Positions 9,720 to 42,798 of a stretch of DNA of 64,000 bases are shown piece after piece (position 1 is the first letter of the stretch; each line of letters begins with the position of its first letter). The notes under the pieces are model-generated. The model did no database searches, had not been told where the DNA came from, and saw only the letters and a program-made list of their open reading frames with translations. The stretch comes from an uncultured delta proteobacterium (lineage in GTDB: Bacteria; Myxococcota; UBA727; VGSZ01), in the NCBI GenBank assembly GCA_963775425.1, contig CAVZJB010000016.1, positions 736,001 to 800,000 on the forward strand, read 5' to 3'. The translations under genes and the position numbers were made by a program.

Positions 9720-10994
9720 TCACGTCCACTTCAAGTGGCTGTGCAAAAGGTCGCGCGCGATCTGATCAACGGTCGTGTTCTTCGCGTCCGCGAGGCGCCG
9801 GAGGGCCTCCAGGTCCGAGGCGCTGAGCTTGACGCGCAGCTCGCCGCCCTTGCCGGGGCGGCCGGGCGAAGTGCCGTGACCGTTTCCGTTCCGCGCGGAC
9901 GGCATCGCGCTGTCGGTGAGCGCGCGGCCGCCCACCTCCTCGAGCTCGAGGATCTCGTCCTCGTGGTCGACGCCGACGTCGCCCTCCGGCGGCCGCTGCG
10001 CGCGCGCCGAGCTCTCGCGCTGCTCCTTGTCCCGGATGAGCAGCTCCTTTTCGCGCTCGATCTCGTCGCCGAAGATCTGCTTGAGGAAGTTGGAGAGGTG
10101 GATGTTCGACGGGGTGAACTCGGACGACGCCAGGTACGTGTCGATGTCGAACTGCATCTCCCACGCCGACTGGTAGCGCTTCTCCTTGTCCTTCTCGAGC
10201 GATTTCATCAAAATACGTTCGACGGACTCGGGGACGTCTTCCTTGAAATAAGAAGGCGGGTAGATCTTGCCGTCAATGATTGACTTCAAGATGGCCATCT
10301 CGTTCTCGCCGGTGAACAGCTTGTACCCGGTGATCCACTCGTACACGACGGAGCCGAGGGCGAAGATGTCGCTGCGGGCGTCGAGCGGCGCGCCCATCGC
10401 CTGCTCGGGCGACATATAGCTCAGCTTCCCCTTGATCTCGCCGGCGCGCGTCTGCTCGATCTGCGTGTTGGCCTTGGCGATGCCGAAGTCGACGATCTTC
10501 ACCGTGCCGTTGAAGCCGACCAGGATGTTCTCGGGCGTGACGTCGCGGTGGACGACGTGCAGCGGGTTGCCGTAGGCGTCGGACTTGGTGTGCGCGTAGA
10601 ACAGGCCCTCGCAGACGTTGGACGCGATGCGCAGCGCGTAGATCATCGGGAACGGGATGCCCGCCTTTTCGGCCTTGGGGATGATGCGGGACATGTCGCG
10701 CCCGGAGATATACTCCATCGCGATGAAATATGAGTCATTGATGCGGCCCAAATCATAGATTTGGACGATATTTGGATGATTCAGTTGCGCCGCGAGCTTG
10801 GCCTCGTTGAGGAACATGCGCACGAAGTTCGGCTGCGACGAGAGGTGCGGCCGGATGCGCTTGATGCAGATGGTCTTCTCGAAGCCCTCGAGACCCTCCT
10901 GCCTCGCGAGGAAGATCTCGGCCATGCCGCCGACCGCGATGCGGTTCAGCAGGCTGTATTTGCCGAAGCGGGTGCCGCGGGGGCCCGTGCTCAC
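9720..10994 (-). CDS. Cytoplasmic Hanks-type Ser/Thr protein kinase with a C-terminal ribbon-helix-helix-like domain
   Basis: GGMAEIF, ICIKR, HRDVTPEN, DFG, GKLSYMSPEQ; no TM segment; tail ELRVKLSASDLEALRRLADAKNTTVDQIARDLL; GTG start at 10994. Confidence 0.9.
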   Translation of the reverse strand: MSTGPRGTRFGKYSLLNRIAVGGMAEIFLARQEGLEGFEKTICIKRIRPHLSSQPNFVRMFLNEAKLAAQLNHPNIVQIYDLGRINDSYFIAMEYISGRDMSRIIPKAEKAGIPFPMIYALRIASNVCEGLFYAHTKSDAYGNPLHVVHRDVTPENILVGFNGTVKIVDFGIAKANTQIEQTRAGEIKGKLSYMSPEQAMGAPLDARSDIFALGSVVYEWITGYKLFTGENEMAILKSIIDGKIYPPSYFKEDVPESVERILMKSLEKDKEKRYQSAWEMQFDIDTYLASSEFTPSNIHLSNFLKQIFGDEIEREKELLIRDKEQRESSARAQRPPEGDVGVDHEDEILELEEVGGRALTDSAMPSARNGNGHGTSPGRPGKGGELRVKLSASDLEALRRLADAKNTTVDQIARDLLHSHLKWT

Positions 10995-11001
10995 GCGGCG
11001 C

Positions 11002-11010
11002 AGCCTAGCA
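11002..11010 (-). promoter_or_regulatory. Extended -10 (TGcTAGGCT), putative leaderless promoter of the kinase
   Basis: TAnnnT hexamer 7 nt before GTG 10994, no Shine-Dalgarno. Confidence 0.5.
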
Positions 11011-11098
11011 GACCCGAGGCGCCGCGAGGGGCGCGGGGCCCCTCCCCGCCTGCGCCGGGGGATTGCACAGCGCCGCCGGGGCAAGAAGGCTGCGGGCC

Positions 11099-19463: not shown

Positions 19464-20033
19464 ATGACTCGTCTCTTCGTCGTCGCCACCCTCAGCGCGT
19501 CCGCCCTCCTCCTCACCGCCTGCCCGCCGAAGGCCAAGCCCGAGCAGCTCCCGCCCGCCGGCCTCGCCGGCGCGCCCGCCACGGGTCAGCCGCTCACGCT
19601 GCCGGGCGCGGGCGTCCCCGTCGCCACGCCGTCCGGAGGCACGCCGTCGACGCAGCTCCCGCCCGGGCACCCGCCCATCCCCGGCGCCAACAGCGGCGGC
19701 GACGCGGACAGCGGCGCCATGCCTGCGGGCCACCCGGCGATGCCGGGCGCCATGGGCGCCATGCCCGGCGCCGGCGACCCCAGCGGCGGCGCCAACGTCG
19801 TGCTCAGCGGCCCGGTCCTCGAGACCATGGACGTCACCGAGTACACGTACATGCGCGTGAAGACCGGCGACGGCGACACCTGGGTCGCCGTCACCAAGAC
19901 GCCCGTGGCCGTCGGCGACGTCGTCACCGTGAACCAGTCGCTGGTGATGACGGACTTCCACTCGAAGAGCCTCAACCGCACGTTCCCCAAGCTCGTGATG
20001 GGGATGATGGTCGGCGCGCCGAAGAAGCCCTGA
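19464..20033 (+). CDS. Lipoprotein with Pro/Met/His-rich linker and C-terminal OB-fold-like (NrfJ-like) domain
   Basis: Lipobox LLLTAC; LPPGHPPI and MPAGHPAM; GPVLETMDVTEYTYMRV..WVAV..MTDFHSKSLNRTF. Confidence 0.7.
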   Translation: MTRLFVVATLSASALLLTACPPKAKPEQLPPAGLAGAPATGQPLTLPGAGVPVATPSGGTPSTQLPPGHPPIPGANSGGDADSGAMPAGHPAMPGAMGAMPGAGDPSGGANVVLSGPVLETMDVTEYTYMRVKTGDGDTWVAVTKTPVAVGDVVTVNQSLVMTDFHSKSLNRTFPKLVMGMMVGAPKKP

Positions 20034-21838
20034 TGTCCCCCGGCGGCGGACGAGCCGCCGCGCCGCGGCACGCGGGGGGCGGCGGCGCTTGGCTCGTCGT
20101 CGTCGCCGCCGCCGCCGCTGTCGCTATCGCCCTGGCGGCGGACGCGGTGCTCGCGGCCCCGCTGTTTTTCTCCAACGACGGCTTCCACCACATCTTCTCG
20201 GCGTGGGGCCGGGCGCACCTCGACGATCCCGCGCTCGGCTACGCGCGCTACTTCCACGGCAACCTCCCGCCGAGCGCCAACGGCGTCGCCGACCTCTTCG
20301 CGTGGCTCGCGCCCGCGGTCGGCTGGCGCCTCGCCCACCAGCTCACCGTCGTCGTCATCGCCGCGGTCTGGATCGCCGGCAGCGTCGCGTTGGCGGCGTC
20401 TGTGCACCCGCGCCGCGCGCTCGTCGGCCTCGTCGCCGGCGCGTGCGCGCTCGGCTTCAACCTCTACCTCGGCTTCTTCGAGTTCGCGCTCGCCACCGGC
20501 ATCGGCTTCTTCGCGCTGGCGCTCGCGATCCGCTCGCCCGTCGCGCCGCCGGCGACGTCGCGGCGGGTGGTGGTGGCCGCGCTCCTGCTCGGCGCGAGCT
20601 TCGTGCACTTCCTCGCGGCGGCGCTGACGGGCTTCACGGTCGCCGTCGTTTGGCTCGCGCGCGTCGAACGAGGCGCGGGGCCGCGCGCGTGGCTCCGCGA
20701 GCTCGTCGCCGTCGCCGCCGTCGGTCTGCCGGCGGCGATCCCCGCCGTGCTCGCCGCCGGCGCCGTCGGCGGCCTCCCCGACGTCGACGAGAGCGCGCCG
20801 CTCGCCGTCCGCCTCGGCGCGCTCGGGATGTGCACCGTCGGGGGACCCTGGTGGCGTCAGCTCCCCGTGTTCGCCGCCGCCGGCGCCGCCGGCGTCGCGC
20901 TCGTCGTCACCCGCCGCGATCGCGGCCGCGTGGAGATCGCGCTCGGCGCGCTCGCGGCGGCGTTCGCCGTCGTCCCGTGGGTGGTGCCTTGGAGCGTCTT
21001 CGGCTGGCAAAACGTCGCGTCGCGGCCGCTGCCCCTCGCCGTGGCGCTCTTCGCGGCGCTCCTGCCGGTGGAGCGCCTGCCGCGCGCGGGCCGCGCCGTC
21101 GCCGCCGCCGCCGCCTGCGCGTTCTTCGCCGCCGCGACGTTGTGGGCGCGCGCCCTCGACGTCGAGGTCGCGCGCGAGTCCGCCGACGTCTTGCGCGTCC
21201 TCGCGCGCGCGCCGCCGAACACCGGCTACCGCTGGCCGTTCATCCTCACGGCGCTGCCGGCCGTGGAGCGCGCGGGGATGGTGCGCTGGGATCCGCAGCG
21301 CGGGCTCGGCTCGCTCTTCGCGCTCGTGCAGGGGGGCTTCGTCGCGTACGCGCACGTGGTGAGCCCGCAGGCGCACACGCTCTTGCTGAAGCCGGAGGTG
21401 AAGGAGGCCCTGCCCCCGCCGCCGCTGCGATCGCGGTGGGTGACGCCGCTGAGAGCCGACGACGATCCGGTCGAGCGCCGCCGCGCGCTCGCCGTGCTCA
21501 TGAGCCAGGCGATGCAGGTCGACGGCGTGATCGTGATCGAGCGCCCCGCGGATCACCCCCAATGGAAGGCGCGCGGGTTCACGGTGGACCTCGAGGACGG
21601 CCGCGTGCTGCTCGCCCGGTTCACGGGCTGCTCGCTCACCGTCGACAGCGCTGCGCCCCGCGACGTCTCGATCGCGATGGCCCCGGAGAGCCCGGCGCTG
21701 TTGCGGCGGGTGGCCCACGTCGACGGCCCCACCAGGGTCGACCGCGTCCCCTGCGGCGCCGTCACCGTCGCCGGCTGCGGCTCCGCCGTCCTGTCGCCCG
21801 ACGCGGCGCCCCTGGTGCGGTGCGGGCCCGGGTCGTGA
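20033..21838 (+). CDS. Polytopic membrane protein, possible GT-C-fold glycosyltransferase
   Basis: About 10-12 TM segments, acidic NDGFHH loop after TM1, soluble C-terminus. Confidence 0.55.
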   Translation: MSPGGGRAAAPRHAGGGGAWLVVVAAAAAVAIALAADAVLAAPLFFSNDGFHHIFSAWGRAHLDDPALGYARYFHGNLPPSANGVADLFAWLAPAVGWRLAHQLTVVVIAAVWIAGSVALAASVHPRRALVGLVAGACALGFNLYLGFFEFALATGIGFFALALAIRSPVAPPATSRRVVVAALLLGASFVHFLAAALTGFTVAVVWLARVERGAGPRAWLRELVAVAAVGLPAAIPAVLAAGAVGGLPDVDESAPLAVRLGALGMCTVGGPWWRQLPVFAAAGAAGVALVVTRRDRGRVEIALGALAAAFAVVPWVVPWSVFGWQNVASRPLPLAVALFAALLPVERLPRAGRAVAAAAACAFFAAATLWARALDVEVARESADVLRVLARAPPNTGYRWPFILTALPAVERAGMVRWDPQRGLGSLFALVQGGFVAYAHVVSPQAHTLLLKPEVKEALPPPPLRSRWVTPLRADDDPVERRRALAVLMSQAMQVDGVIVIERPADHPQWKARGFTVDLEDGRVLLARFTGCSLTVDSAAPRDVSIAMAPESPALLRRVAHVDGPTRVDRVPCGAVTVAGCGSAVLSPDAAPLVRCGPGS

Positions 21839-21948: not shown

Positions 21949-22314
21949 GTGGAAGGCTACGCGGCTCAGTACGGCTCCCTCGTCGTGTTCATCGTCGTCG
22001 GAGCGCTCTTTCCGATCGCACCCCTGGTCGCGGCTTCGATCATCGCGCCGAAGAAGCCGTCGCAGACCAAGGAAGACACCTACGAGTGCGGCCTGGAGTC
22101 CAAGGGCGACCCGTGGGTGGCGCTCAAGGTGCAGTATTACGTGTACGCGCTCGCCTTCGTGGCCTTCGACCTCGAGGCGCCGTTCCTCTACGCGTGGGCC
22201 GTGGTGTTCCACAAGCTCTCGGTCTTCGCGTTCGTGGAGATGATGATCTTCATCGCGGTGCTCGTCGTCGGGCTGGCGTGGGCGTGGAAGAAGGGGGCGC
22301 TGGAGTGGAGGTGA
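21949..22314 (+). CDS. nuoA: NADH-quinone oxidoreductase subunit A
   Basis: K.DTYECG, YYVYALAFVAFDLE, WKKGALEW. Confidence 0.96.
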   Translation: MEGYAAQYGSLVVFIVVGALFPIAPLVAASIIAPKKPSQTKEDTYECGLESKGDPWVALKVQYYVYALAFVAFDLEAPFLYAWAVVFHKLSVFAFVEMMIFIAVLVVGLAWAWKKGALEWR

Positions 22315-22317
22315 CCG

Positions 22318-23004
22318 GTGCCCATCGATGAAGGACTGAAGAGCGAGCTGGCCAAGTCCGGCATCGTCGCCACGACGTTCGAGCAGCTCTACAACTGGGG
22401 CCGCAAGAGCTCGATCTGGCCGTTGCAGTTCGGCCTCGCCTGCTGCGCCATCGAGATGATCGCCACCGCCGCCGCGCGCTTCGACCTGTCGCGCTTCGGC
22501 GCCGAGGTCTTCCGCGCGTCGCCGCGCCAGGCGGACCTCATGATCGTCGCCGGCACGGTGACCAAGAAGATGGCCCCGCAGGTGGTGCGCCTGTGGAACC
22601 AGATGCCGGAGCCCAAGTACTGCATCGCCATGGGCGCCTGCGCCATCGCCGGCGGCCCGTTCAAGCAGGGCTACAACGTCCTCAAGGGCATCGACCGCTT
22701 CATCCCCGTCGACGTCCACATCCCCGGCTGCCCGCCGCGGCCCGAGGCGCTCCTGCACGCGCTCATCACGCTGCAGAAGAAGATGGACGCGCAGCGCTTC
22801 AAGAAGCTCAGCGAGCCGGTGCCCACGCACATCGCCGACCGCCCCGCCGAGTACCCCATCCCCGAGCTCGGCGCGCACGACCTCACGCCGGCGTCGAACC
22901 CCGCGGTCTGGCACCCGCCCAAGCTCGGCCGCACGCTGCCCATCGTCGAGGACGTGCCGCCCGCGCCGGCGCCGCCGGGCGAAAAGGCCAAGGAGCCCGC
23001 ATGA
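22318..23004 (+). CDS. nuoB: NADH-quinone oxidoreductase subunit B
   Basis: [28 protein letters not shown]. Confidence 0.97.
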
Positions 23005-23552
23005 GCGAGCCATCCACCCTCGGCACGCTCGAGGAGATCAAGGCGCGCATCGAGGCCGCCGTCCCCGCCGCCGCCGGCAAGGTGAGCGTGGAGGCGCCGG
23101 CGCTGGTGATCGAGCGGGACGCGCTCGTCGAGGTCTGCCGCTTCCTCAAGACGGACGACGCGCTTCGCCTGAATTTTCTCTCGAACCTGTGCGCCGTCGA
23201 CTGGCTCAAGCCCGCGCCGCGGCTCGAGGTCGTCTACCACCTGTTCTCCGTCGAGAAGCGCCACGGGCCCCTCACGCTCAAGTGCCGCACCGGCGACCGC
23301 GGCGAGGACGTCCACGTGCCGTCCGTGACCCCGGTGTGGCGCAGCGCCGAGTACCAGGAGCGCGAGGCCTTCGACCTGTACGGCGTCATCTTCGACGGGC
23401 ACCCGGACCTCCGCCGCATCCTCATGTGGGACGGCTTCGAGGACCACCCCATGCGCAAGGACTACGCACCTCCCGACGACTACGAGTGGGAGCCCACCGC
23501 GCACGACCACGTCCTCGACAAGGCGCGCGACCACCACAAGGTGTCGTCATGA
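23001..23552 (+). CDS. nuoC: NADH-quinone oxidoreductase subunit C
   Basis: [28 protein letters not shown]. Confidence 0.95.
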
Positions 23553-24706
23553 GCGGCGCCGAGGAGCACGAGCGCTACAAGCTCGCGCCCGTCGAGAATT
23601 CTCTGGAGGGCCAGCAGCTCGAGATCGCCATCGGGCCCCAGCACCCGAGCACGCACGGCGTGTTCCGCATGGACGTCACGCTCGACGGCGAGGTGGTCAC
23701 CAAGCTCAAGCCCGTGATGGGCTACCTGCACAGGAACCACGAGCAGATCGCCGAGCACACCACCTACCTCGGCAGCATGCCGTTCACCGATCGCCTCGAC
23801 TACTTCAACTCGATGGCGAACAACTGGGGCTTCGCGCTCACCGTCGAGAAGCTCGCAGGCATCAAGGTGCCCGAGCGCGCGGAGTACATCCGCGTGATCA
23901 TGTGCGAGCTCACGCGCATCCTCAACCACACCTGCGTCGCCGGCTTCCTCCTGAACGACTGCGGCGCGTGGATGACGCCGCTTTTGTACGCGTTCCGCGA
24001 GCGCGAGAAGATCCTCGACATCTTCGAGGCCGTCAGCGGCGCGCGGCTGATGTGCAACTACTTCCGCTTCGGCGGCGTCCGCGCCGACATGACCGACGCG
24101 GACCTCCAGGCCGTGCGCGACCTGGTCGACGGGCTGCCCGAGTTCCTCGAGGAATTCGAAAAGCTCATGACGGAGAACGAGATCCTGATGGAGCGCACGC
24201 AGGGCGTGGGCACGCTCCCGCGGGAGCTCGCCATCGACGCCGGCGTCACCGGTCCCATGGCCCGCGCCAGCGGCGTCGAGTACGACGTGCGCAAGATCGA
24301 CAAGTACGGCATCTACGACCGCTTCGACTTCAAGGTGCCCCTCGGGGACCACGGCGACGTCTACGACCGCTACTACGTCCGCCTCCTCGAGGTGCACGAG
24401 AGCCTGAAGATCCTGAGGCAGGCGTTGAAGGACATCCCGGCGGGGCCGCACATGGACCCGAAGGCGCGGCTGCGGAACTTCCGGCCGCCCAAGGGTGAGG
24501 CGTACGGCCGCGTGGAGAGCCCCAAGGGCGAGCTCGGCTTCTACATCGTGAGCACCGGCGAGAAGAACCCGTACCGCTACCACGTGCGTCCGCCGAGCTT
24601 CATCAACCTCACCATCCTCGAAGATATGTGCATCGGGCAAAAGGTCGCCGACGTCGTCGTCATCCTCGGCGCCGTCGACATCGTGCTCGGCGAGGTGGAC
24701 CGATGA
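23549..24706 (+). CDS. nuoD: NADH-quinone oxidoreductase subunit D
   Basis: [37 protein letters not shown]; no NiFe CxxC motifs. Confidence 0.97.
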
Positions 24707-25647
24707 GCGCCGGACGAGGGCTCTTGAAGGGCCTGATGGTCACCGCCCGCAACTTCGTCGGCAGCTACTTCGAGGCCGACCGCCTGGTGACGCAGCAGTA
24801 CCCGGAGGAGAAGGCGCACACGAAGGAGAACTTCAGGAACGTGCCGTTCCTGCTCTACGACGGCGCCGACGCCATCCAGGGCATGCGCTGCGTGGCGTGC
24901 AAGATCTGCGAGCAGGAGTGCCCGCCGCAGTGCATCTACATCGAAGGCACCTTCGACGCCGAGGGCAACTCGCTGAAGACCCCCAAGGTCTTCGACATCG
25001 ACTTCACCGTGTGCATGAACTGCGGCATCTGCGCCGAGGCCTGCCCCTTCGACGCCATCAAGATGGACAACGAGTTCGAGCTCGCGAGCACCGACCGCTT
25101 CAACGGACAGCTCGCCGACCTCCACCGGCTCCTGAAGTCCAACGAGTACTACCACCAGATCAAGCCCACCGAGGCCGGCGACGTCGACGAGCGCCTCGCC
25201 GCCAAGGCCAAGAAGTCCGCCGCCAAGAAGGCGCCGGCGCCCGCGGCGACGCCGCCGACCTCGCCGGTGCCCGCGGCCAAGGCCGCGCCGGCCCCGGCGG
25301 GGGACAAGGCCCCGCGCCCCGACGCCAAGCCCGCCGCGGGGCCGCCGCCCCCGCCCCCGCCGCCGTCGGGGCCGGCGGAGGTCATCGCGCTCCCGAGCGC
25401 CGATGCGCCGCCGCTGCCGCCGCCGCCGGGCTCCGGCGCGCCCACCGCGGCCGCGCCGCCTCCGCCGCCGCCGCCGCCGCCGGGGGAGCAGGAGGTCATC
25501 GCGCCGCCGAGCGCCGATGCGCCGCCGCTGCCGCCGCCGCCGGCGTCGAACCCGCCTGTGAGCGCGGCGCCTCCGCCGCCGCCAGCTCCGGCCGCGGGGC
25601 CGCCCGGCCAGGCCGGCGGTGACGCGAAGGATGGGTCGAAGACATGA
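24703..25647 (+). CDS. nuoI: NADH-quinone oxidoreductase subunit I with long Pro/Ala-rich C-terminal extension
   Basis: [31 protein letters not shown]. Confidence 0.93.
25340..25555 (+). repeat. Internal duplication (period 114 bp) in the nuoI tail
   Basis: gaggtcatcgcg..ccgagcgccgatgcgccgccgctgccgccgccgccg at about 25378 and 25492. Confidence 0.8.
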
Positions 25648-26849
25648 GCGAGACGCTCGATCAGATCTTCGTGCTCGCGCACGACAAGCTCGTGGCGCTC
25701 GTGGCCATGCTCGGCCTGCCCTGGCTCGCCGTGATCGTCTCGCTGCTGTTGCCGGCGGCGCTGTGCCTGATGGTGTGGCCGCTGTTCTTCGCGTTCCTCA
25801 CCTGGCTCGAGCGCAAGGTGCTCGGGCGCATCCAGAACCGCTACGGGCCGAACCGCGTGGGGCCCTTCGGCCTGCTGCAGCCCATCGCCGACGGCATCAA
25901 GATGCTCACCAAGGAGGACATCGTCCCGCGGCTGGCCGACCACGTCCTCCACCGGCTCGCCCCCGCGCTCATCGTCATCCCCGCGTTCTCCGTGTTCGCG
26001 CTCCTGCCGTTCGGAAAGAACATGACGCCGGCGGACATCGACGTCTCGCTGCTCCTGTTCTTCGCCGTCAGCTCCGTGTCCACGCTCGCGCTCTTCATCG
26101 CCGGCTGGGGCAGCCGCAACAAGTACTCGCTGCTCGGCGCCATGCGCGCGGTGGCGCAGATGGTGAGCTACGAGCTCCCCGTGGTCATGGCCGCGGTCCC
26201 GGTGGTGATGATCGTCGGCTCCTTGCGCATCGGCGCCGTGGTCGCCGCCCAGGGCCCACGCGTCCCCGGGGAGGCCTTCGGCAGCATCTCGCACTGGTTC
26301 ATCTGGACGCCCTGGGGCCTGTTCGGCTTCGCGCTCTTCTTCGTCGCGGGCATGGCCGAGCTCAACCGCTCGCCGTTCGACATCGCCGAGGGCGAGAGCG
26401 AGATCGTGGCCGGCTTCCACACCGAGTACTCCGGCTTCAAGTTCGCGCTCTTCTTCCTCGCCGAGTACCTGAGCGCCATCGCGTTCGCGGGCCTGGCGTC
26501 GTCGCTGTTCCTCGGCGGCTTCGAGGGGCCCGCGCCCATCCCGTCGTGGCTGTGGTTCTTCGGCAAGATGTTCTTTCTCATAGCGCTGATGATGTGGGCC
26601 CGTGGCACCCTGCCGCGCCTGCGCGTCGATCAGCTCATGGGTTTCTCGTGGAAGTTCCTCCTGCCGCTCACCCTCGTGAACATCGTGGCCACCGCGCTGT
26701 GGTCCGTCTGGCACGAGGGCGACGTGCTGCATCGGGCCGCGGGCTGGCTCGGGTCGGCCGCGCTCCTCGTGGCGGCATACTTCCTCTTCGCCAAGCTCAA
26801 CGCCGGCCCCGCCGTCAAAAAGCGCGTCTACCGCTACGCGGACCTGTGA
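25644..26849 (+). CDS. nuoH: NADH-quinone oxidoreductase subunit H
   Basis: ERKVLGRIQNRYGPNRVG, QPIADGIK, NRSPFDIAEGESE, PRLRVDQ. Confidence 0.97.
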   Translation: MSETLDQIFVLAHDKLVALVAMLGLPWLAVIVSLLLPAALCLMVWPLFFAFLTWLERKVLGRIQNRYGPNRVGPFGLLQPIADGIKMLTKEDIVPRLADHVLHRLAPALIVIPAFSVFALLPFGKNMTPADIDVSLLLFFAVSSVSTLALFIAGWGSRNKYSLLGAMRAVAQMVSYELPVVMAAVPVVMIVGSLRIGAVVAAQGPRVPGEAFGSISHWFIWTPWGLFGFALFFVAGMAELNRSPFDIAEGESEIVAGFHTEYSGFKFALFFLAEYLSAIAFAGLASSLFLGGFEGPAPIPSWLWFFGKMFFLIALMMWARGTLPRLRVDQLMGFSWKFLLPLTLVNIVATALWSVWHEGDVLHRAAGWLGSAALLVAAYFLFAKLNAGPAVKKRVYRYADL

Positions 26850-26850
26850 C

Positions 26851-27366
26851 ATGACCCCCGCGCACATCGGCTTCCTCGTGCTCTCCGCCGTCTGCGTCGC
26901 AGGCGCGCTCGGCGCCGTCATCATCAAGAACATCGCGCGCGCGCTCCTGAGCGTGGTGACGTTCTTCTTCGGCGTGGCCGGGCTGTTCTTCATGATGCAC
27001 GCCGAGTTCGTCGGCGTCGTGCAGCTCCTGGTCTACGTCGGCGCCATCGCCGTGCTCATCATCTTCGCCATCGTCCTCACGCGCGCCATGGAGACGCCCG
27101 CCGACGTCGCGCGCATCGCGGGGTGGCGGCCGCTCGGCATCGCCACCGCCGTCGCCGTCGCCGCCGTCATCATCGGCGTCATCTTGAAGAACCCGGACGT
27201 CGCCGCACCGCCCGCCCCCGGACAGACGGCCGGCGCAGAGGAGATCGGGCAGGCCCTGATGACCCGCTACGTGGTGCCCTTCGAGGTGGCCTCGGTGCTC
27301 CTGACTGCGACGCTCATCGGCGCCGTCGTCATCGCGCTCGACGAGACCCGGCGGAGGAAGCGGTGA
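26851..27366 (+). CDS. nuoJ: NADH-quinone oxidoreductase subunit J
   Basis: AEFVGVVQLLVYVGAIAVL, YVVPFEVASVLL. Confidence 0.95.
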   Translation: MTPAHIGFLVLSAVCVAGALGAVIIKNIARALLSVVTFFFGVAGLFFMMHAEFVGVVQLLVYVGAIAVLIIFAIVLTRAMETPADVARIAGWRPLGIATAVAVAAVIIGVILKNPDVAAPPAPGQTAGAEEIGQALMTRYVVPFEVASVLLTATLIGAVVIALDETRRRKR

Positions 27367-27665
27367 GCCTCAACGAAGTCCTCATCCTGTCCGCGCTCCT
27401 CTTCGCCATCGGCGTGGCGGGGGCGCTCACGCGGCGCAACGCCATCCTGCTCCTCGTCAGCATCGAGATCATGATGAACGCCGCCAACATCAACTTCGTG
27501 GCGTTCTGGAGGTACGGTGCGCTGCCCATCAGCGCCAACCTCTTCGCCCTCTTCATCATCATCATCGCCGGCGCCGAGTCCACCGTGGGCCTCGCGCTCG
27601 TCATCAGCATCTATCGCCAGCTCAAGAGCGTCGACGTCGAGAAGATCGACTCGCTGAGCGGCTGA
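27363..27665 (+). CDS. nuoK: NADH-quinone oxidoreductase subunit K
   Basis: GTG start; RRNAI..SIEIMMNAAN..AGAESTVGLA. Confidence 0.95.
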   Translation: MSLNEVLILSALLFAIGVAGALTRRNAILLLVSIEIMMNAANINFVAFWRYGALPISANLFALFIIIIAGAESTVGLALVISIYRQLKSVDVEKIDSLSG

Positions 27666-27687
27666 CGACAACGAGGAGCTCTTCGCC

Positions 27688-29705
<2,018 letters not shown>

Positions 29706-29709
<4 letters not shown>

Positions 29710-31382
29710 CCTTCATCGACGCCCACCTGCTCTCTCTCCTGGTGCTGGTGCCCGCGGCCACCGCCATCCTCGTGCTCGTCCTCGGCGAGCGCGCCCCCGC
29801 CAGCGTGGACGCCGCCGCCCCTGACGCGCCGCCCGGCAGCCGCGCGCGCACCGTCGCCCTCGCGGGGTGCGCGGTGGCGCTCGCGCTCGCGCTGCGCGCC
29901 GCGTCGCTGTTCGACCCGCACGACGCCGCCCGGCAGCTCTCCGAGCGCGTCTCGTGGATCCCCACGCTTCACGCCGACTACTCCGTCGGCGTCGACGGCC
30001 TGAGCATCCTGCTGCTCATCCTCACGGCGGTGATCGTGCCGCTGTCGCTGGTGGCGTCGTGGCCCGCGGGCGTCGACAAGCGGCGCACCTTCGCCCTCGT
30101 GATGCTGTTGCAGGCCGGCATGTTCGGCGTGTTCACCGCCGAGAGCTTCTTTCACTGGTTCGTGTTCTGGGAGATGGTGCTCATCCCCGCCTTCTTCCTC
30201 ATCAAGAGCGGCGGCGCCGCCGGCCACGACGCGCGCCGCGCCGCCCTCAAGTTCCTGCTGTACACGCTCGTCGGCAGCGTCGCGATGCTGCTCGCGTTCC
30301 AGGCCATCTTCTGGGCCACGGGCAGCATGGACTTCATCGAGCTCGCGCGCCTCGGCACCGCCGGCACCCTCGACGAGAAGCTCGCGGCCGTCGCCGCCCA
30401 CGCCCACATCGGCTGGACCGCCAGGACCTGCGGCGCCGTCGCCTTCTCCTGCATCGTCCTCGCGTGCGCGGTGAAGACGCCGCTGTGGCCGTTTCACACC
30501 TGGCTGCCCGACGCGTACGGCGAGGCGCCCACGCCGGCCACGCTCCTGCTCACCGCGGGCATGTCCAAGATGGGCGTCTATGCGCTGCTGCGCATCGCGT
30601 TGCCGCTGTTTCCGTCGAGCGCCGCGCGCTTGGCGCCCGTGCTCGTCGGCCTCGCCCTCGTCACCGTGGTGGCGGCGGCGTTCTCGGCGCTCGCGCAGAC
30701 GGACCTCAAGCGCATGATGGCGTACTCGTCCATCAACCACGTCGGCCTCTGCCTGCTCGCGCTCTTCGCCGCCGCCAGCGCCTCCGTCGACATCACCGCC
30801 GACGACCGCGCCGCCGCGCTCGACGGCGCCGTCCTGCAGATGTTCGTGCACGGCATCGAGGCGGCCCTGATGTTCTTCCTGCTCGCGGCCCTCGAAAGAC
30901 GCGTCGCCGCGCGCGCGCAGGCCGCGGGCGACCGGCCCCCGCGCCCCTCCGAGGGCGGCGCCGCCGTCCTCGGGCTCAACGACTTCGGCGGGCTGCGCAA
31001 GGTCGCGCCGTGGTTCTGCGGCGTCTTCGGCGTCGTCACGTTCGCGTCGATCGGCCTCCCAGGCCTCGCCGGCTTCGTCAGCGAGATCCTCGTGCTGCGC
31101 GGCACCTTCGCGCTCGCCCCCGCCGCGGCCGCCGTCGCCCTCGTCGGCGTGATGATCACCGCGGTGTTCCTCCTCAGCGTCATCCAGCGCGTGTGGTGGG
31201 GCCCGCTCAACGAGCGCTTCCGCGACATGCGCGACCTCTCCTGGCGCGAGCTCGTCCCCGCGGGCGTGTTCGTGCTCCTCATCGTCGCCGTCGGCGTCCT
31301 GCCCGCGTGGTTCACCGCGCAGGGCAACGGCGCCGTCGAAGCGCTCGGCGCGCTGCTCGCGCAGGGAGCCAACGTCCCATGA
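29706..31382 (+). CDS. nuoM: NADH-quinone oxidoreductase subunit M (copy 1)
   Basis: FWEMVLIP, VKTPLWPFHTWLPDA, SKMGVY, AYSSINH, GFVSE. Confidence 0.93.
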
Positions 31383-32908
31383 GCGCGCTCTTCTCCCTCT
31401 CGCGGCTCGACTGGACCATCTACCTGTCGTGGCTGGGGGTCCTCGCTATCCTCTTCATCCCGAGCGGCAACAAGGGCGCCATCCGCGTCACAGCCCTCGC
31501 CTCCGCCCTCGCCGGCCTCGTCGTCGCCCTCTACGGCTTCCTCACCTACCGCATCGATCCCGGCAGCGCCGCGAGCGGCGCCGATGCCTTGCACGCGTCG
31601 TTCGCGCAGTTCGAGGTGCAGGCGCCGTGGATCCCGGCCATCGGGGCTTCGTTTCACCTGGGCGCCGACGGCGTGAGCCTCCCGCTCCTCGTGTTGAACG
31701 GCGTGGTCGCCGTCACCGGCGTGCTGTTCTCGTGGAACGTCGAGCATCGCACCAAGGAGTTCTTCGTCTTCCTGCTCCTGCTCGTGAGCGGCGTCTACGG
31801 CGTGTTCCTCTCGCTGGACCTCCTGCTTCTATTTGCGTTCTACGAGCTGGCCATCATCCCGAAGTACTTCATCATCGCCATCTGGGGCTCCACCCGGCGC
31901 GAGTACGCGGCCATGAAGCTCGTGCTCTACAGCTTCGCGGGCAGCGCGCTCGTGTTCGCCGGCATCGTCATCCTCTACGCCGGTGCCGGCGCCAAGACCT
32001 TCGACCTGCTCGCGCTCAGAGACGCGCTGCCGGCCGAGATGCAGTTCTTCTGCTTCCCGCTCATCTTCGCCGGCTTCGGCGTGCTCGCCGGCATGTGGCC
32101 GTTCCACACGTGGGCGCCCACCGGCCACTCGGCCGCGCCCACCGCCGCGTCGATGCTCCTCGCGGGCGTGGTGATGAAGCTCGGCGCCTACGGCTGCCTG
32201 CGCGTGGGCCTGCTCCTGCTGCCGCAGGGTCTCTCCGCGTACGGTGGCATGTGGCAGTGGTTCTTCGCGCTCCTCGCCGTCGCCGGCATCATCTGGGGCG
32301 CCGGCGTGGCGCTCGTGCAGAAGGACTTCAAGTTCGTCATCGGCAACTCCAGCGTGAGCCACATGGGCTTCGTGCTGCTGGGCCTGATGACGCTCGACAG
32401 CATCGGCATCGACGGCGCCGTCCTGCAGATGTTCTCGCACGGCATCGTGGCGAGCCTCCTGTTCGCCGTCGTCGGCCGCATGGTCTACGACCGCGCCCAC
32501 ACCCGCCAGCTCGACGAGCTCGGACCCATGCGCCTCGCGCGCCGCATGCCGTTCGTGGCCGCCGTGTTCATCATCGGCGGCCTGGCCTCCATGGGCTTGC
32601 CGGGTCTGTCGGGCTTCGTCGCCGAGCTCCACGTCCTGGTGGGCGCCTGGGACGTGTTCCCCTGGCTGGCCGTCGCCGCCGGCGGCGGGATCGTGATCAC
32701 CGTCTGGTACACCTTCCGCACCATCCTCGCCGCCTTCTACGGTGACCCGGCCGCGCCCGACAAAACGCAGGATCCGCTGCCCCCCATCACGTGGCAGGAG
32801 CGCGTGGCGTCGCTGGCCCTGGTCGCGCTCCTCTTCGTCGTCGGCCTCGCGCCGGCCACCCTGCTCGACATGATCGATCACAGCGTGCGGCTGATGGTGA
32901 ACCGATGA
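31379..32908 (+). CDS. nuoM: NADH-quinone oxidoreductase subunit M (copy 2)
   Basis: FYELAIIP, WPFHTWAP, MKLGAYG, SSVSHMG, GFVAE. Confidence 0.92.
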   Translation: MSALFSLSRLDWTIYLSWLGVLAILFIPSGNKGAIRVTALASALAGLVVALYGFLTYRIDPGSAASGADALHASFAQFEVQAPWIPAIGASFHLGADGVSLPLLVLNGVVAVTGVLFSWNVEHRTKEFFVFLLLLVSGVYGVFLSLDLLLLFAFYELAIIPKYFIIAIWGSTRREYAAMKLVLYSFAGSALVFAGIVILYAGAGAKTFDLLALRDALPAEMQFFCFPLIFAGFGVLAGMWPFHTWAPTGHSAAPTAASMLLAGVVMKLGAYGCLRVGLLLLPQGLSAYGGMWQWFFALLAVAGIIWGAGVALVQKDFKFVIGNSSVSHMGFVLLGLMTLDSIGIDGAVLQMFSHGIVASLLFAVVGRMVYDRAHTRQLDELGPMRLARRMPFVAAVFIIGGLASMGLPGLSGFVAELHVLVGAWDVFPWLAVAAGGGIVITVWYTFRTILAAFYGDPAAPDKTQDPLPPITWQERVASLALVALLFVVGLAPATLLDMIDHSVRLMVNR

Positions 32909-34455
32909 GCGCCGTCGACGTCGCCCAGACCCTCGCGCCCGAAAGCATCATCATCGGCACGGCGCTCGTGTTCCTCATCGTCGACGTGGCGCTGCTGCGC
33001 GGCCGCGAGGTCCGCACCCGCGCGCTCGTGTGCGGCTTCGGCGCCGTCGCCGGCCTCATCGCCGCCGGCGCCGTGCTGTTGCAGCAGCTCTCGGTGACGT
33101 TCGACATCTATTACCGGGACGCCGACCGCATCCTCGTCGTCGATCGCTTGAGCCTCACGCTGCGGCTGGTGCTCGTCGGCCTCGCCGCCGGCGTGTGCCT
33201 GCTGTCCATCCGCTACGAGTTCACCAAACACGTCGGCGAGTACTTCGCCGTCACCCTGTTCGGCCTCGTCGGCATGGACCTCCTCGTGTCCACCGAGAAC
33301 CTCCTGATGTTCGTGGTGGCGCTCGAGCTCCTCAGCGTGTGCCTGTTCATCCTCACGGCCTTCCACAAAGGCGTCCCGCGCTCGGCGGAGGGTGCCGCCA
33401 AGTACTTCCTCATCGGCGCGCTGAGCTCCGCGTTCCTCTTGTTCGGCATGAGCTACGTCGTGGGCACCACCGGCGCCATGGACATCCCGCACCTCGCGGG
33501 CGCCGTCGCGCGCGCCGCCGGCGGCGGCGGCCACCCCGCGCTGTTGATCCTCGGCCTGGTGTTCGTGGTGGTCGGCCTCGGCTTCAAGCTCGCCGCCGTG
33601 CCCTTCCACGCGTGGGCCCCCGACGCGTACCAGGGCGCGCCCACGCCCGTGACCGCGTTCATCGCCACCGGCTCCAAGGTCGCGAGCTTCGCCATCGCCG
33701 CCAAGCTGCTCGTCGTCGGCTTCGGCGGGCTCAAGGGCAGCGTGTCCTGGGACTGGCACGACTTGATGTACGGCTGGCTGGGCGCTCTGCACGTCGAGCC
33801 CGGCTGGATACTCGTCCTCGCGCCCATGGCGGCCGCGAGCATGATCTGGGGCAACGTCGCCGCCATCGGCCAGAAGAACATCAAGCGCATGCTCGCGTAC
33901 TCGAGCATCGCGCACGGCGGCTACACCCTCATCGGCCTCCTCGCCGCCGACGAGGCCGGCCTCACCGCGATGTTCACGTACCTCGTGCTCTACTCGCTCA
34001 CCAACCTGGGCGCCTTCGGCGTTGTCGCGGCGCTCACGCGCAAGGCGGGCGGCGACAATCTCGAGGACTTCGACGGCATGGTGCAGCGGGCGCCGCTGCT
34101 GTCGGTGCTGTTGATGCTGTTCGTGCTCTCCCTCGCGGGGGTCCCGCCGCTCGCCGGTTTCTTCGGCAAGTTCTACCTGTTTTCGACCGCCGTCTCCGCG
34201 GACAGCGGCATGGGCCTGCTGTGGCTCGTCATCGTCGCCCTCGTGACGAGCGTGGTGTCCCTCTATTACTACCTGGTGCTCTTGAAGCACGTGCTCGTTG
34301 ACCCGCCGCGCCACACGGAGCGGATCCGCGCAGGCGCGCTGTGGACGCTGCCGCTCGTCGTCATCGCCCTGCTGGTGGTGGGCCTCGGGGTCTATCCGCA
34401 GCCGCTCGTGCACATGTTCGCGGGGCTCGTTCACATCGGCGGGTTCGTGCGCTGA
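32905..34455 (+). CDS. nuoN: NADH-quinone oxidoreductase subunit N
   Basis: ALELLS, EGAAKYF, FKLAAVPFHAWAPDAYQGAPTP, KRMLAYSSIAH, GFFGKF. Confidence 0.96.
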   Translation: MSAVDVAQTLAPESIIIGTALVFLIVDVALLRGREVRTRALVCGFGAVAGLIAAGAVLLQQLSVTFDIYYRDADRILVVDRLSLTLRLVLVGLAAGVCLLSIRYEFTKHVGEYFAVTLFGLVGMDLLVSTENLLMFVVALELLSVCLFILTAFHKGVPRSAEGAAKYFLIGALSSAFLLFGMSYVVGTTGAMDIPHLAGAVARAAGGGGHPALLILGLVFVVVGLGFKLAAVPFHAWAPDAYQGAPTPVTAFIATGSKVASFAIAAKLLVVGFGGLKGSVSWDWHDLMYGWLGALHVEPGWILVLAPMAAASMIWGNVAAIGQKNIKRMLAYSSIAHGGYTLIGLLAADEAGLTAMFTYLVLYSLTNLGAFGVVAALTRKAGGDNLEDFDGMVQRAPLLSVLLMLFVLSLAGVPPLAGFFGKFYLFSTAVSADSGMGLLWLVIVALVTSVVSLYYYLVLLKHVLVDPPRHTERIRAGALWTLPLVVIALLVVGLGVYPQPLVHMFAGLVHIGGFVR

Positions 34456-34499: not shown

Positions 34500-35444
34500 A
34501 TGGACTATCGACGGCTCGGTGCCTCCGGCTTGCACGTGAGCGCGATCGGCCTCGGCGGCTGGACCACGTTCGGCTCGGGTGCGCTGGCTCCCGAGGACGG
34601 CGAGCACATCGTGCGCGCGGCCTTCGACGCCGGCATCAACTTCTTCGACATCGCCGACGTCTACGCGCAGGGGGAGTGCGAGCGGAGCATGGGGCGCGTG
34701 CTGAAGACGCTGCCGCGCCACCGGCTGGTCATCGCGTCCAAGGTGTACTGGCCCATGTCCGACGACGTGAACGACCGCGGGCTGAGCCGGAAGCACATCG
34801 TGGAGAGCGTGGACAAGAGCCTCGCACGCATCGGCGTCGACTACCTCGACCTCTACTTCTGCCACCGCTACGACGACGACGTCCGCCTCGACGAGACATT
34901 GCGCGCCATGGACGACCTCGTCCGCGCCGGCAAGATCCTCTACTGGGGAACGAGCTGCTGGACGGGGGCGCACCTCAAGGAGGCGCACGCCCTCGCCGAC
35001 GCCCGCTCGCAGGCGGCGCCGGTGGCCGAGCAGCCGGAGTACGGCCTGATGTGTCGCGACATCGAGCGCGCGCTGATGCGGGCGGCGCAGGAGGCGGGCA
35101 TGGGGCTGCTCGTCTGGGGCGCGCTCGCGTCGGGCGTGCTCACCGGCAAGTACAAGGACGGCATCCCCAAGGGCTCGCGCCTCGATCGCATCGAGTGGCT
35201 CCGGGACACGGTGCTCACCGACGAGCACCGCGCCCAGGTCGACGCGTTCGTCGCGCTCGCCGCCGAGCTCGGCGCGCCGCCGGCGCGGGTGGCCCTCGCG
35301 TGGGCGCTGTCGCGCCCGGGCGTCTCGAGCGTGATCACCGGGGCGTCGAGCGTGGCGCAGCTCGAGGAGAACCTGACGGCGCTGTCGCTGCCCATCGACG
35401 ACGCCCTCGGCGCGAAGCTCGACGCCATCTTCCCAGCCGCGTAA
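34500..35444 (+). CDS. Aldo/keto reductase (Kv-beta/YajO-like)
   Basis: YRRLGASGLHVSAIGLG, FFDIADVY, GLSRKHI, DLYFCHR, GKILYWGTS. Confidence 0.93.
   Translation: MDYRRLGASGLHVSAIGLGGWTTFGSGALAPEDGEHIVRAAFDAGINFFDIADVYAQGECERSMGRVLKTLPRHRLVIASKVYWPMSDDVNDRGLSRKHIVESVDKSLARIGVDYLDLYFCHRYDDDVRLDETLRAMDDLVRAGKILYWGTSCWTGAHLKEAHALADARSQAAPVAEQPEYGLMCRDIERALMRAAQEAGMGLLVWGALASGVLTGKYKDGIPKGSRLDRIEWLRDTVLTDEHRAQVDAFVALAAELGAPPARVALAWALSRPGVSSVITGASSVAQLEENLTALSLPIDDALGAKLDAIFPAA

Positions 35445-40980: not shown

Positions 40981-42798
<1,818 letters not shown>

What the first reader, a model, noticed from the sequence alone, without database searches (positions are those of the whole stretch)
21949..34455. 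Headless '2M' complex I: nuoABCD-I-H-JKL-M-M-N with no nuoEFG
Seen: 12 tightly coupled nuo genes with two divergent NuoM paralogs, nuoI placed before nuoH, and no NADH-input module. Known: complex I homologs with an extra NuoM ('2M') have been described in a few lineages and are proposed to move an extra proton per electron pair or aid reverse electron transfer. Inferred: in a Myxococcota-like genome this is probably a second, possibly horizontally acquired, complex fed by an unknown donor such as ferredoxin, flavodoxin or nuoEFG encoded elsewhere.
Basis: partly seen in the sequence, partly recalled or inferred. Interest (0 to 1): 0.8.

Follow-up and report, generated by a model that had tools for sequence, protein, structure and literature searches.

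The report
Headless two-NuoM complex I operon
This is a real 12-gene operon for a respiratory complex I variant that lacks the NADH-binding head and has a fourth proton-pumping-type subunit, a type already described in other bacteria and here found in an uncultured myxobacterial relative.

Summary
Window 21949-34455 (+) encodes nuoA-B-C-D-I-H-J-K-L-M1-M2-N, and 8 of 11 gene junctions are 4-nt overlaps. No NuoE/F/G homologue lies anywhere in the 64 kb.

Both extra genes are true NuoM-type proteins. They are about 30% identical and fall in one NuoM clade (SH-aLRT 100), apart from NuoN, NuoL, MrpD-like and Hyf proteins.

NuoL carries a 24-28-residue insertion in its lateral helix, the published hallmark of '2M' complex I (PMC6606698, PMC9040806).

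The cassette is not rare. A capped scan of species-representative genomes confirmed 599 of 608 matched stretches as relatives. The 80 loci kept, all labelled Verrucomicrobiota or Acidobacteriota apart from a few doubtful labels, show the same layout and none has nuoEFG. It is therefore a new member of a known kind.

Two further points emerged:
- M1 and M2 are not recent duplicates. M2 is sister to the single NuoM of the headless Bacteroides complex.
- M2 has Leu in place of the TM7 lysine that E. coli NuoM and the other single-copy NuoM references except Bacteroides keep. It has a conserved Lys six residues after the TM5 Glu instead.

The electron donor, a possible second nuo operon, and horizontal origin remain untested.

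The parts
21949..22314 (+). nuoA (121 aa)
   Evidence: PF00507, 123.5 bits. NuoA NCBIfam models are the top hits.
22318..23004 (+). nuoB (228 aa), carries cluster N2
   Evidence: PF01058. NF011394 338.7 bits, above its cut-off of 312. C42, C43, C108 and C138 align with E. coli NuoB C63, C64, C129 and C158.
23001..23552 (+). nuoC (183 aa), separate from nuoD
   Evidence: PF00329 144.8 bits. TIGR01961 128.2 bits, cut-off 122.45.
23549..24706 (+). nuoD (385 aa), quinone-site subunit
   Evidence: PF00346 317.3 bits. NF004739 453.4 bits, cut-off 360. H36, Y85 and D137 align with E. coli NuoCD H224, Y273 and D325.
24703..25647 (+). nuoI (314 aa): a two-[4Fe-4S] ferredoxin-like core of about 160 aa, then a Pro/Ala-rich C-terminal tail of about 150 aa
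   Evidence: Fer4 families. TIGR01971 NuoI is the top NCBIfam hit at 90.3 bits, below its cut-off of 113. Two CxxCxxCxxxCP motifs are visible in the translation. The tail holds a 114-bp tandem repeat, 2.2 copies, at 25341-25583.
25644..26849 (+). nuoH (401 aa)
   Evidence: PF00146 381.1 bits. NF004741 339.7 bits, cut-off 305.
26851..27366 (+). nuoJ (171 aa)
   Evidence: PF00499 118.5 bits.
27363..27665 (+). nuoK (100 aa)
   Evidence: PF00420. NF004320 106.8 bits, cut-off 57.
27688..29709 (+). nuoL (673 aa) with a lengthened lateral (HL) helix
   Evidence: NF005141 644.5 bits, cut-off 556. The span between conserved anchors D571 and Y651 is 81 residues, against 53 in E. coli, 57 in Bacteroides and 58 in S. 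meliloti NuoL. It is 82 in 73 of 74 related loci. AF2 model: helices 559-567, 570-620 and 626-644, then TM16 at 648-672.
29706..31382 (+). nuoM1 (558 aa): NuoM-type with the full set of channel residues
   Evidence: TIGR01972 404.6 bits, cut-off 263.8. E156, K257, K288 and E460 align with E. coli NuoM E144, K234, K265 and E407. It forms a deep separate clade inside NuoM.
31379..32908 (+). nuoM2 (509 aa): NuoM-type with Leu at the TM7 lysine position
   Evidence: TIGR01972 430.2 bits. It has E156, L236 (in place of Lys), K267 and E416, plus a conserved K162. It is sister to Bacteroides NuoM, SH-aLRT 100.
32905..34455 (+). nuoN (516 aa)
   Evidence: TIGR01770 368.7 bits, cut-off 332.6. It sits in the NuoN clade.

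Best explanation
The operon encodes a complex I-like quinone oxidoreductase without the NADH-oxidising N-module. Its membrane arm holds four antiporter-like subunits instead of three.

Shown by sequence:
- An intact Q-module: the four N2 cysteines in NuoB, the His/Tyr/Asp of the NuoD quinone site, and two 4Fe-4S motifs in NuoI.
- The membrane core H, A, J and K.
- NuoL, two NuoM-type proteins and NuoN.
- A NuoL lateral helix lengthened by 24-28 residues.

Inferred:
- Both Ms assemble side by side in the physical order N-M2-M1-L (the reverse of gene order, as in canonical complex I), clamped by the longer helix.
- M2 is the lineage's original NuoM, shared with headless 11-subunit enzymes of the Bacteroides type. 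M1 is an added, anciently diverged NuoM placed between M2 and L.
- Electrons enter at NuoI from a soluble low-potential carrier such as ferredoxin or flavodoxin, or from a docking partner encoded elsewhere. They pass through the NuoI clusters and N2 to quinone.
- The extra module raises the number of ions moved per electron pair. Running backwards, it would let the membrane potential push electrons from quinol up to a low-potential acceptor.
For: - Family assignments of all 12 genes, and translational coupling at 8 of 11 junctions.
- No NuoE/F/G homologue in the window.
- No E. coli NuoE/F/G-like ORF in 0 of 80 related loci, each with up to 10 kb of flank.
- Q-module residues are conserved in the window and in 46-52 of 54 (NuoD) and 48-49 of 50 (NuoB) related loci.
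- Both Ms lie inside the NuoM clade: 34 rows, SH-aLRT 100, in a 72-row tree with NuoL, NuoN, Hyf and MrpD-like references.
- HL helix anchor span: 81 residues in the window; 82 in 73 of 74 loci; 53-58 in three single-M references. The alignment shows a clean 26-residue gap in NuoL of Bacteroides, whose NuoM is sister to M2.
- The M1-then-M2 order recurs: both types in 78 of 80 loci, M1 directly upstream of M2 in 67 of those 78.
- M2 + Bacteroides NuoM, SH-aLRT 100. M1+M2 as one clade is rejected by the AU test (dlnL 53.2, p 1e-6); the group was named after the tree was seen.
- No flanking gene family is conserved: at most 8 of 73 loci downstream and 6 of 39 upstream. This fits a self-contained cassette.
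[quoted passage not shown] The Nitrospira form lacks N-module genes; the two papers list NuoE, NuoF and 'NuoH'. It is proposed to link quinol and ferredoxin (PMC6606698, PMC8115632, PMC12342949, PMC9040806). The donor of 11-subunit enzymes is unresolved, with ferredoxin/PFOR as candidates (PMC11238625).
Against: - No protein-level or expression evidence exists.
- The donor is purely inferred, and no ferredoxin or flavodoxin gene was found next to the operon.
- M2 lacks the TM7 lysine that E. coli NuoM and 4 of the 5 other single-copy NuoM references keep, and that the 4 PDB alignments printed, from three different enzymes, also show. It may not pump like a normal module, so 'one more proton' is not secure.
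- Only 64 kb of a 1.33-Mb contig was visible, so nuoEFG may lie elsewhere.
- The HL part of the NuoL model has low confidence: pLDDT below 50 at 620-630 and 636-656.
- Two divergent plasmid-borne L-like proteins from single-M operons gave spans of 78 and 82, but their first anchor is not conserved, so the alignment there is unreliable.
Confidence: 0.75

Rival explanations
1. It is an NADH-dependent 2M complex I. Its NuoE, NuoF and NuoG are encoded elsewhere in the genome, alone or shared with a canonical nuo operon, and dock onto this Q-module.
For: Only 64 kb of a 1.33-Mb contig could be read (contig length). Spero et al. note a genome with one nuoEFG set and two copies of the other genes (PMC4453560, table footnote). 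In N. moscoviensis a lone nuoF is highly expressed (PMC6606698 passage).
Against: None of 80 related loci has a NuoE/F/G-like ORF within up to 10 kb. M2 groups with NuoM of the Bacteroides 11-subunit operon, which also lacks nuoEFG. The nuoD-nuoI-nuoH order, with 4-nt overlaps, leaves no place for E, F and G.
Confidence: 0.15
2. The complex assembles with four modules, but M2 is an altered or non-pumping connector because it lacks the TM7 lysine. M1 then restores, rather than adds to, the usual pumping capacity, and the stoichiometry is no higher than in canonical complex I.
For: M2 has L236 at the E. coli NuoM K234 position, as do 75 of 76 related M2 proteins (the remaining one has a gap there). 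M1 keeps all four residues in 80 of 80. The 4 PDB alignments printed (three different enzymes) show Lys there. Among the 150 best cluster representatives hit by M2, 54 lack Lys at this position.
Against: The single NuoM of Bacteroides also has Leu there, so this residue is apparently dispensable in a working single-M lineage. M2 keeps the TM5 Glu, TM8 Lys, TM12 Glu and the conserved histidines. A Lys at TM5+6 occurs in 23 of the 150 representatives, and all 23 lack the TM7 Lys, which suggests relocation rather than loss.
Confidence: 0.2
3. M1 and M2 are alternative subunits that yield two different three-module complexes and never co-assemble.
For: None directly. Sequence alone cannot show assembly.
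Against: The NuoL helix insertion of fixed length (82-residue span in 73 of 74 loci) accompanies the two-M layout and is absent from the single-M Bacteroides operon whose NuoM is sister to M2. M1/M2 and M2/N overlap by 4 nt, which implies co-translation.
Confidence: 0.04

Closest known systems
2M complex I (Chadwick et al. 2018, ISME J; Nitrospira 'clade 3' form)
   Same: A second NuoM gene between nuoL and nuoN. A lengthened NuoL with an insertion of about 26 residues in the lateral helix. Separate nuoC and nuoD. No N-module genes in the cluster. (Window. Literature passages: PMC6606698, PMC9040806, PMC12342949, PMC8115632.)
   Different: The host is an uncultured Myxococcota-like lineage with no sign of nitrifier genes in the window. 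Placement among the published clades could not be tested: the primary paper is not held and no Nitrospira sequence was available. Whether the TM7 Lys-to-Leu change in M2 occurs in Nitrospira is unknown.
11-subunit 'headless' complex I-like enzyme (Bacteroides, Desulfitobacterium; Moparthi & Hagerhall 2011)
   Same: No nuoEFG, a conserved Q-module and an unknown donor (PMC11238625 passages; PMC3144371 search listing only). M2 is sister to Bacteroides finegoldii NuoM and shares its Leu at the TM7 lysine position.
   Different: This operon has 12 genes, not 11. It has an extra NuoM (M1), and its NuoL helix span is 24 residues longer than in Bacteroides (81 against 57; the alignment shows a 26-residue gap). 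Gene order is D-I-H here and CD-H-I in Bacteroides, where nuoC and nuoD are fused.
Rhizobial 'green' complex I (pSymA) and 'Ca. Manganitrophus' Complex_I_3
   Same: Complex I variants with more than three antiporter-like modules (PMC9040806 passage; pSymA locus).
   Different: Those use two MrpD-like subunits in place of NuoL. Here NuoL is a normal NuoL type and the extra module is NuoM-type. The pSymA MrpD-like proteins fall outside the NuoM clade. pSymA also carries nuoE and nuoF.
Cyanobacterial/chloroplast NDH-1 (ferredoxin-dependent)
   Same: No N-module. NdhF1 (6hum_F) is the best PDB match of the window's NuoL (466.8 bits), and NdhD1 (6hum_D) is among the best matches of M2.
   Different: NDH-1 has three antiporter-like subunits in its respiratory form and dedicated ferredoxin-docking subunits (recalled, not tested here). 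No such extra genes flank this operon.

Membership tests
2M complex I | Two NuoM-type genes adjacent, between nuoL and nuoN | tested here: met
   TIGR01972 scores 404.6 and 430.2 bits against a cut-off of 263.8. Both lie in the NuoM clade, SH-aLRT 100.
2M complex I | Lengthened NuoL with an insertion of about 26 residues in the amphipathic lateral helix | tested here: met
   Anchor span of 81 residues against 53 (E. coli), 57 (Bacteroides) and 58 (S. meliloti). Clean 26-residue gap in Bacteroides. Feature as stated in PMC9040806 and PMC6606698 passages.
2M complex I | Falls in one of the published 2M clades (e.g. clade 3 with Nitrospira) | not testable with these tools
   The primary paper is not held.
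2M complex I | Each antiporter-like module keeps the proton-channel residues (TM5 Glu, TM7 Lys, TM8 Lys, TM12 Glu/Lys). This is my expectation for a pumping module, recalled, not a published criterion. | tested here: inconclusive
   M1 has all four. M2 has Leu at the TM7 Lys position and a conserved Lys at TM5+6. At the three aligned positions that E. coli NuoL and NuoN share (TM5 Glu, TM7 Lys, TM12 Lys), the window's L and N match them; the TM8 Lys of L and N was not compared.
11-subunit headless complex I-like enzyme | nuoEFG absent from the operon; Q-module intact | tested here: met
   No E/F/G hit in the window. NuoB cysteines and NuoD H36/Y85/D137 present.
11-subunit headless complex I-like enzyme | Exactly three antiporter-like subunits (11 genes) | tested here: not met
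   Four antiporter-like genes, 12 genes in all.
Canonical 14-subunit NADH:quinone oxidoreductase | NuoE, NuoF and NuoG present with the other subunits | tested here: not met
   Absent from the operon and from the 64-kb window. The rest of the genome was not visible.
Mrp antiporter / MrpD-containing 'green' complex I | The extra module is of MrpD or MrpA type | tested here: not met
   MrpD-type NCBIfam scores are 128-162 bits, against 405-430 for NuoM. The pSymA MrpD-like and Hyf proteins fall outside the NuoM clade.

The most novel reading that the evidence does not exclude
In this cassette lineage, the NuoM next to NuoN (M2, together with the single NuoM of Bacteroides-type headless enzymes) has given up the TM7 lysine of the Glu-Lys pair that current complex I models treat as essential. 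In M2 a lysine has moved to TM5, six residues after the Glu. The second, fully canonical NuoM (M1) was recruited from a deeply diverged NuoM lineage, not made by duplication. If so, these enzymes are natural experiments on how charge is passed between antiporter-like modules, and '2M' need not simply mean one more proton.
Probability: 0.25. Interest if true: 0.6.

Novelty: new member of a known kind. Interest (0 to 1): 0.35.

Why it matters
This adds an uncultured Myxococcota-like lineage to the hosts of N-module-less, four-module complex I. It also shows that the same cassette is common in the genomes the scan returned, nearly all labelled Verrucomicrobiota or Acidobacteriota. The 2M form should therefore not be read only as an adaptation of nitrifiers to reverse electron flow.

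The open questions are general ones for bioenergetics. What feeds headless complex I? Does a fourth module really raise the H+/e- ratio? The conserved loss of the TM7 lysine in M2, and its apparent relocation, gives a concrete residue-level handle for testing coupling models in a relative that can be cultured.

Tried and rejected
- **Primary paper.** Chadwick et al. 2018 could not be read by DOI or PMC id. Its clade definitions and host list come only from passages in papers that cite it.
- **Literature searches.** Searches for 2M in Myxococcota, Verrucomicrobia or Acidobacteria gave noise or nothing relevant. A search for NuoM1/NuoM2 gave 5 papers, none on these phyla. One narrow search for a missing TM7 lysine gave 0 papers. 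This does not show the point is unpublished.
- **Conserved neighbour as donor.** No gene family recurs beside the cassette: at most 8 of 73 loci downstream and 6 of 39 upstream. The aldo/keto reductase 45 nt downstream of nuoN recurs, at 31% identity, in only 1 of 73 loci, so I do not count it as part of the system.
- **Promoters and terminators.** The scan found no promoter-like site. Its terminator-like sites lie inside genes: 10 found against 5.3 expected by chance.
- **Recent duplication of nuoM.** Rejected by the trees and the AU test.
- **Own genome and closest relatives.** The genome scan did not return the window's own genome or its closest (>60% identity) relatives.
- **Complex prediction.** Not run. 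M1+M2 (1067 aa) exceeds the 1000-residue limit, and a pass would mostly reflect likeness to solved M-N and L-M interfaces.
- **Model coordinates.** These were not available, so the distance between K162 and the usual TM7 lysine site could not be measured.


Full report
**1. What is there**

The window is about 71% G+C, so raw ORF lists are crowded with spurious frames. Third-position GC plots and start-codon inspection resolve twelve co-directional genes between 21949 and 34455 on the + strand.

Pfam and NCBIfam assign them to NuoA, B, C, D, I, H, J, K, L, M, M and N. Eight of the eleven junctions are 4-nt overlaps.

nuoI lies before nuoH, and nuoC and nuoD are separate genes.

- tblastn with E. 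coli NuoE, NuoF and NuoG finds nothing in the 64 kb at E<=1e-3. The other seven E. coli subunits queried (B, CD, H, I, L, M, N) hit only inside the operon.
- Pfam scans of 28 further ORFs show housekeeping and signalling genes (MutS, Lon, SNF2 helicase, two Ser/Thr kinases, a sigma-54 activator and others) but no N-module domain.

**2. Are both extra genes really NuoM?**

- M1 (558 aa) and M2 (509 aa) are 30% identical to each other.
- Each matches E. coli NuoM (203 and 229 bits) far better than E. coli NuoL or NuoN (95 bits or less).
- Their best NCBIfam model is NDH_I_M (404.6 and 430.2 bits, cut-off 263.8). NuoN, MrpD-type and HyfB models score 120-163 bits.
- I built a 72-row maximum-likelihood tree with references from E. 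coli (NuoL/M/N, HyfB/D/F), Bacteroides, S. meliloti (chromosomal-type and pSymA 'green' complex I) and two plasmid operons. All NuoM, M1 and M2 rows form one clade with SH-aLRT 100. That clade excludes NuoN, NuoL, the MrpD-like proteins and Hyf.

**3. Do the two Ms belong to one complex?**

The papers I could read describe 2M complex I as having a second NuoM and a lengthened NuoL. The NuoL insertion of about 26 residues in the lateral amphipathic helix is thought to let the helix reach across four modules (PMC9040806, PMC6606698 passages).

I measured the span between two conserved anchors of that helix, window D571 and Y651:

| NuoL | Span (residues) |
|---|---|
| Window | 81 |
| Related loci (73 of 74 with both anchors) | 82 |
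| E. coli | 53 |
| Bacteroides | 57 |
| S. meliloti | 58 |

The alignment shows a clean 26-residue gap in Bacteroides. At 1.5 Å per helical residue (textbook value), the 24-28 extra residues are 36-42 Å. From recall, that is roughly one module's width.

An AF2 model of NuoL (30-sequence alignment, mean pLDDT 78.4, pTM 0.79) predicts helices at 559-567, 570-620 and 626-644, followed by the terminal transmembrane helix at 648-672. The distal part has low confidence, as expected for a helix modelled without its partners.

Two divergent plasmid L-like proteins gave spans of 78 and 82. Their first anchor is not conserved, so I do not rely on them.

The fixed-length insertion that accompanies the two-M layout, plus the 4-nt overlaps, is the main argument for co-assembly. 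It remains an inference.

**4. How common is it, and in whom?**

M1's closest database relatives reach only 64% identity. The only named one among them is 'Deltaproteobacteria bacterium RBG_16_71_12' at 62%. Below that come proteins at 45-50%, those with names being Verrucomicrobia.

The best 80 loci were kept. They are labelled Verrucomicrobiota or Acidobacteriota, apart from one unclassified 'bacterium' and a few doubtful labels (see section 8). Among these 80 loci:

| Feature | Count |
|---|---|
| Both an M1-type and an M2-type gene | 78 of 80 |
| M1 directly upstream of M2 | 67 of those 78 |
| Fully colinear A-B-C-D-I-H-J-K-L-M1-M2-N in my ORF-order test | 25 of 80 (many loci are truncated, and overlapping spurious ORFs disturb the order) |
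| nuoI before nuoH, of the 54 loci with both | 47 |
| nuoH before nuoI | 0 |
| ABCDI and HJKLM1M2N as divergent units | 7 |
| A NuoE/F/G-like ORF | 0 of 80 |

The I-before-H order simply groups nuoA and the peripheral-arm genes (B, C, D, I) ahead of the remaining membrane genes. The cassette is a conserved, widespread unit.

**5. Host and origin**

The Lon protease downstream has relatives at up to 95% identity. Its named hits are 'Deltaproteobacteria bacterium' (91%, 80%), 'Myxococcota bacterium' (81%, 77%), 'Myxococcaceae bacterium' (79%) and 'Myxococcales bacterium' (79%). 'Myxococcota-like' is therefore reasonable.

NuoD's best relative is 81% identical, and proteins named Verrucomicrobia follow at 70-76%.

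In the L, M2 and N clades the window branches just outside the sampled Verrucomicrobiota/Acidobacteriota group. Its M1 joins a small clade of mostly unnamed proteins that is sister to that group's M1. The operon's GC (0.68-0.725) is unremarkable for the window.

I see no evidence of recent transfer. The high cross-phylum identity is compatible with older lateral spread, but I did not test this against a species tree. Whether the genome also has a canonical nuo operon could not be examined.

**6. Function of the parts**

- NuoB keeps the four cysteines that align with E. coli C63, C64, C129 and C158.
- NuoD keeps H36, Y85 and D137, which align with E. coli NuoCD H224, Y273 and D325. The residue numbers were recalled and then checked against the fetched E. 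coli sequence. One recalled position (228) turned out to be Arg in E. coli and in the window.
- NuoI has both CxxCxxCxxxCP motifs.

The enzyme should therefore still move electrons between a cluster chain and quinone.

With no N-module and no conserved neighbour gene, the donor or acceptor is unknown. The literature on 11-subunit enzymes and on Nitrospira points to ferredoxin or several docking partners (PMC11238625, PMC6606698, PMC12342949 passages).

From standard potentials (my own knowledge, not computed here), ferredoxin-to-quinone offers more driving force than NADH-to-quinone. That would fit a higher ion/electron ratio in the forward direction. The same gearing would help quinol-to-ferredoxin reverse flow.

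**7. Details that may be new**

First, M1 and M2 are not recent duplicates. With a site-heterogeneous model, M2 is sister to the single NuoM of the Bacteroides headless operon (SH-aLRT 100), while M1 is a separate deep NuoM lineage. An AU test rejects M1+M2 as one clade (dlnL 53.2, p 1e-6); the group was defined after the tree was seen. By gene order M1 lies on the NuoL side. The simplest reading is that an extra NuoM was inserted between the original M and L of a headless enzyme, together with the helix extension.

Second, M1 keeps all four channel residues of E. coli NuoM: E144, K234, K265 and E407 correspond to E156, K257, K288 and E460. M2 has Leu236 at the K234 position, as do 75 of 76 related M2 proteins (the remaining one has a gap there). 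Bacteroides NuoM also has Leu there. The 4 PDB alignments printed, from three different enzymes, show Lys at this site.

M2 instead has a conserved Lys162, six residues after the TM5 Glu, in 99% of 77 M2 rows.

Among the 150 best 50%-identity cluster representatives hit by M2 (a sample biased toward M2-like proteins), the residues are:

| Position | Residues found |
|---|---|
| TM7 lysine site | Lys 95; Leu 43; other residues 11; gap 1 |
| TM5+6 | Lys 23, and all 23 lack the TM7 Lys |

This pattern suggests relocation of the charge rather than simple loss, but no structure-based distance could be computed. One narrow literature search found no mention of it. That is not proof of novelty.

**8. 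Other observations**

- NuoI carries a Pro/Ala-rich tail of about 150 residues with a 38-residue tandem repeat. Relatives have shorter extensions: median 206 aa from the aligned start, maximum 301.
- M1 has two window-specific insertions, in its N-terminal region and at about residues 403-421.
- A Kv-beta-type aldo/keto reductase follows nuoN after 45 nt, with no terminator-like site between them. An AKR recurs in only 1 of 73 loci, at 31% identity.
- Several MAG loci carry implausible organism labels for this gene set (see Noticed in passing).

**9. Verdict**

This is a genuine, well-formed operon for a headless, four-module ('2M') complex I-like enzyme. The kind is already described, and the cassette is widespread in the scanned genomes. 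The Myxococcota-like host is a modest extension.

The donor, the direction of operation, the true stoichiometry and the existence of a second nuo operon remain open. The M2 lysine pattern is the most interesting lead.

Noticed in passing
window 25180-25647 (C-terminal part of nuoI): NuoI ends in a Pro/Ala-rich low-complexity tail of about 150 residues. It holds a 114-bp (38-aa) tandem repeat of 2.2 copies at 25341-25583 (82% matches). Related NuoI proteins also have C-terminal extensions, but shorter ones (median 206 aa from the aligned start, maximum 301). The function is unknown. It sits on the subunit where an electron donor would dock.
   Followed up: partly
window 31379-32908 (nuoM2), residues L236 and K162: M2 has Leu where E. 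coli NuoM has K234 (TM7), and a conserved Lys six residues after the TM5 Glu. The pattern holds in 75 of 76 related M2 proteins. Bacteroides NuoM also has the Leu. In 150 cluster representatives, Lys at TM5+6 occurs in 23, and all 23 lack the TM7 Lys.
   Followed up: partly
window 34500-35444 (+): An aldo/keto reductase of the Kv-beta subfamily (TIGR01293 253.3 bits, below its cut-off of 365.4; PF00248 233.5 bits) starts 45 nt after nuoN on the same strand, with no terminator-like site between. An AKR (31% identical) follows nuoN in only one related locus, L068.
   Followed up: partly
window 20033-21838 (+): A 601-aa, very GC-rich (GC3 0.96) predicted multi-pass membrane protein with no Pfam hit ends 110 nt upstream of nuoA. 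No relation to the operon was found.
   Followed up: no
window 29706-31382 (nuoM1), residues about 30-42 and 403-421: The window's M1 has two insertions (13 and 19 residues, Ala/Pro/Arg-rich) that are absent from all 14 aligned relatives, including the closest at 64% identity.
   Followed up: no
L005, L013, L014, L058, L063: Several MAG records carrying this cassette have organism labels that do not fit its relatives. L005 is labelled 'uncultured Bifidobacterium sp.' and L014 'Klebsiella pneumoniae' (tblastn identities only). L058, labelled 'Candidatus Limnocylindria' (Chloroflexota), sits at short distance inside a Chthoniobacterales group in the trees. L013 and L063 are labelled 'Akkermansia muciniphila'; L013 groups with environmental Verrucomicrobiota rows in the trees. 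Probably mis-binning or mislabelling.
   Followed up: no
L051, L054, L056, L067, L069, L072, L073, L076, L077 (Chthoniobacterales/Spartobacteria-type loci): In these loci the cassette is split into two divergently transcribed units, nuoA-B-C-D-I on one strand and nuoH-J-K-L-M1-M2-N on the other. This explains why nuoI sits with the peripheral-arm genes ahead of nuoH in the colinear form.
   Followed up: partly
window 9720-11084, 40981-42798, 43987-46230: Two Ser/Thr protein kinases and a GAF-domain sigma-54 activator lie in the window. Together with the named Lon hits, this gene content fits a Myxococcota-type genome.
   Followed up: no
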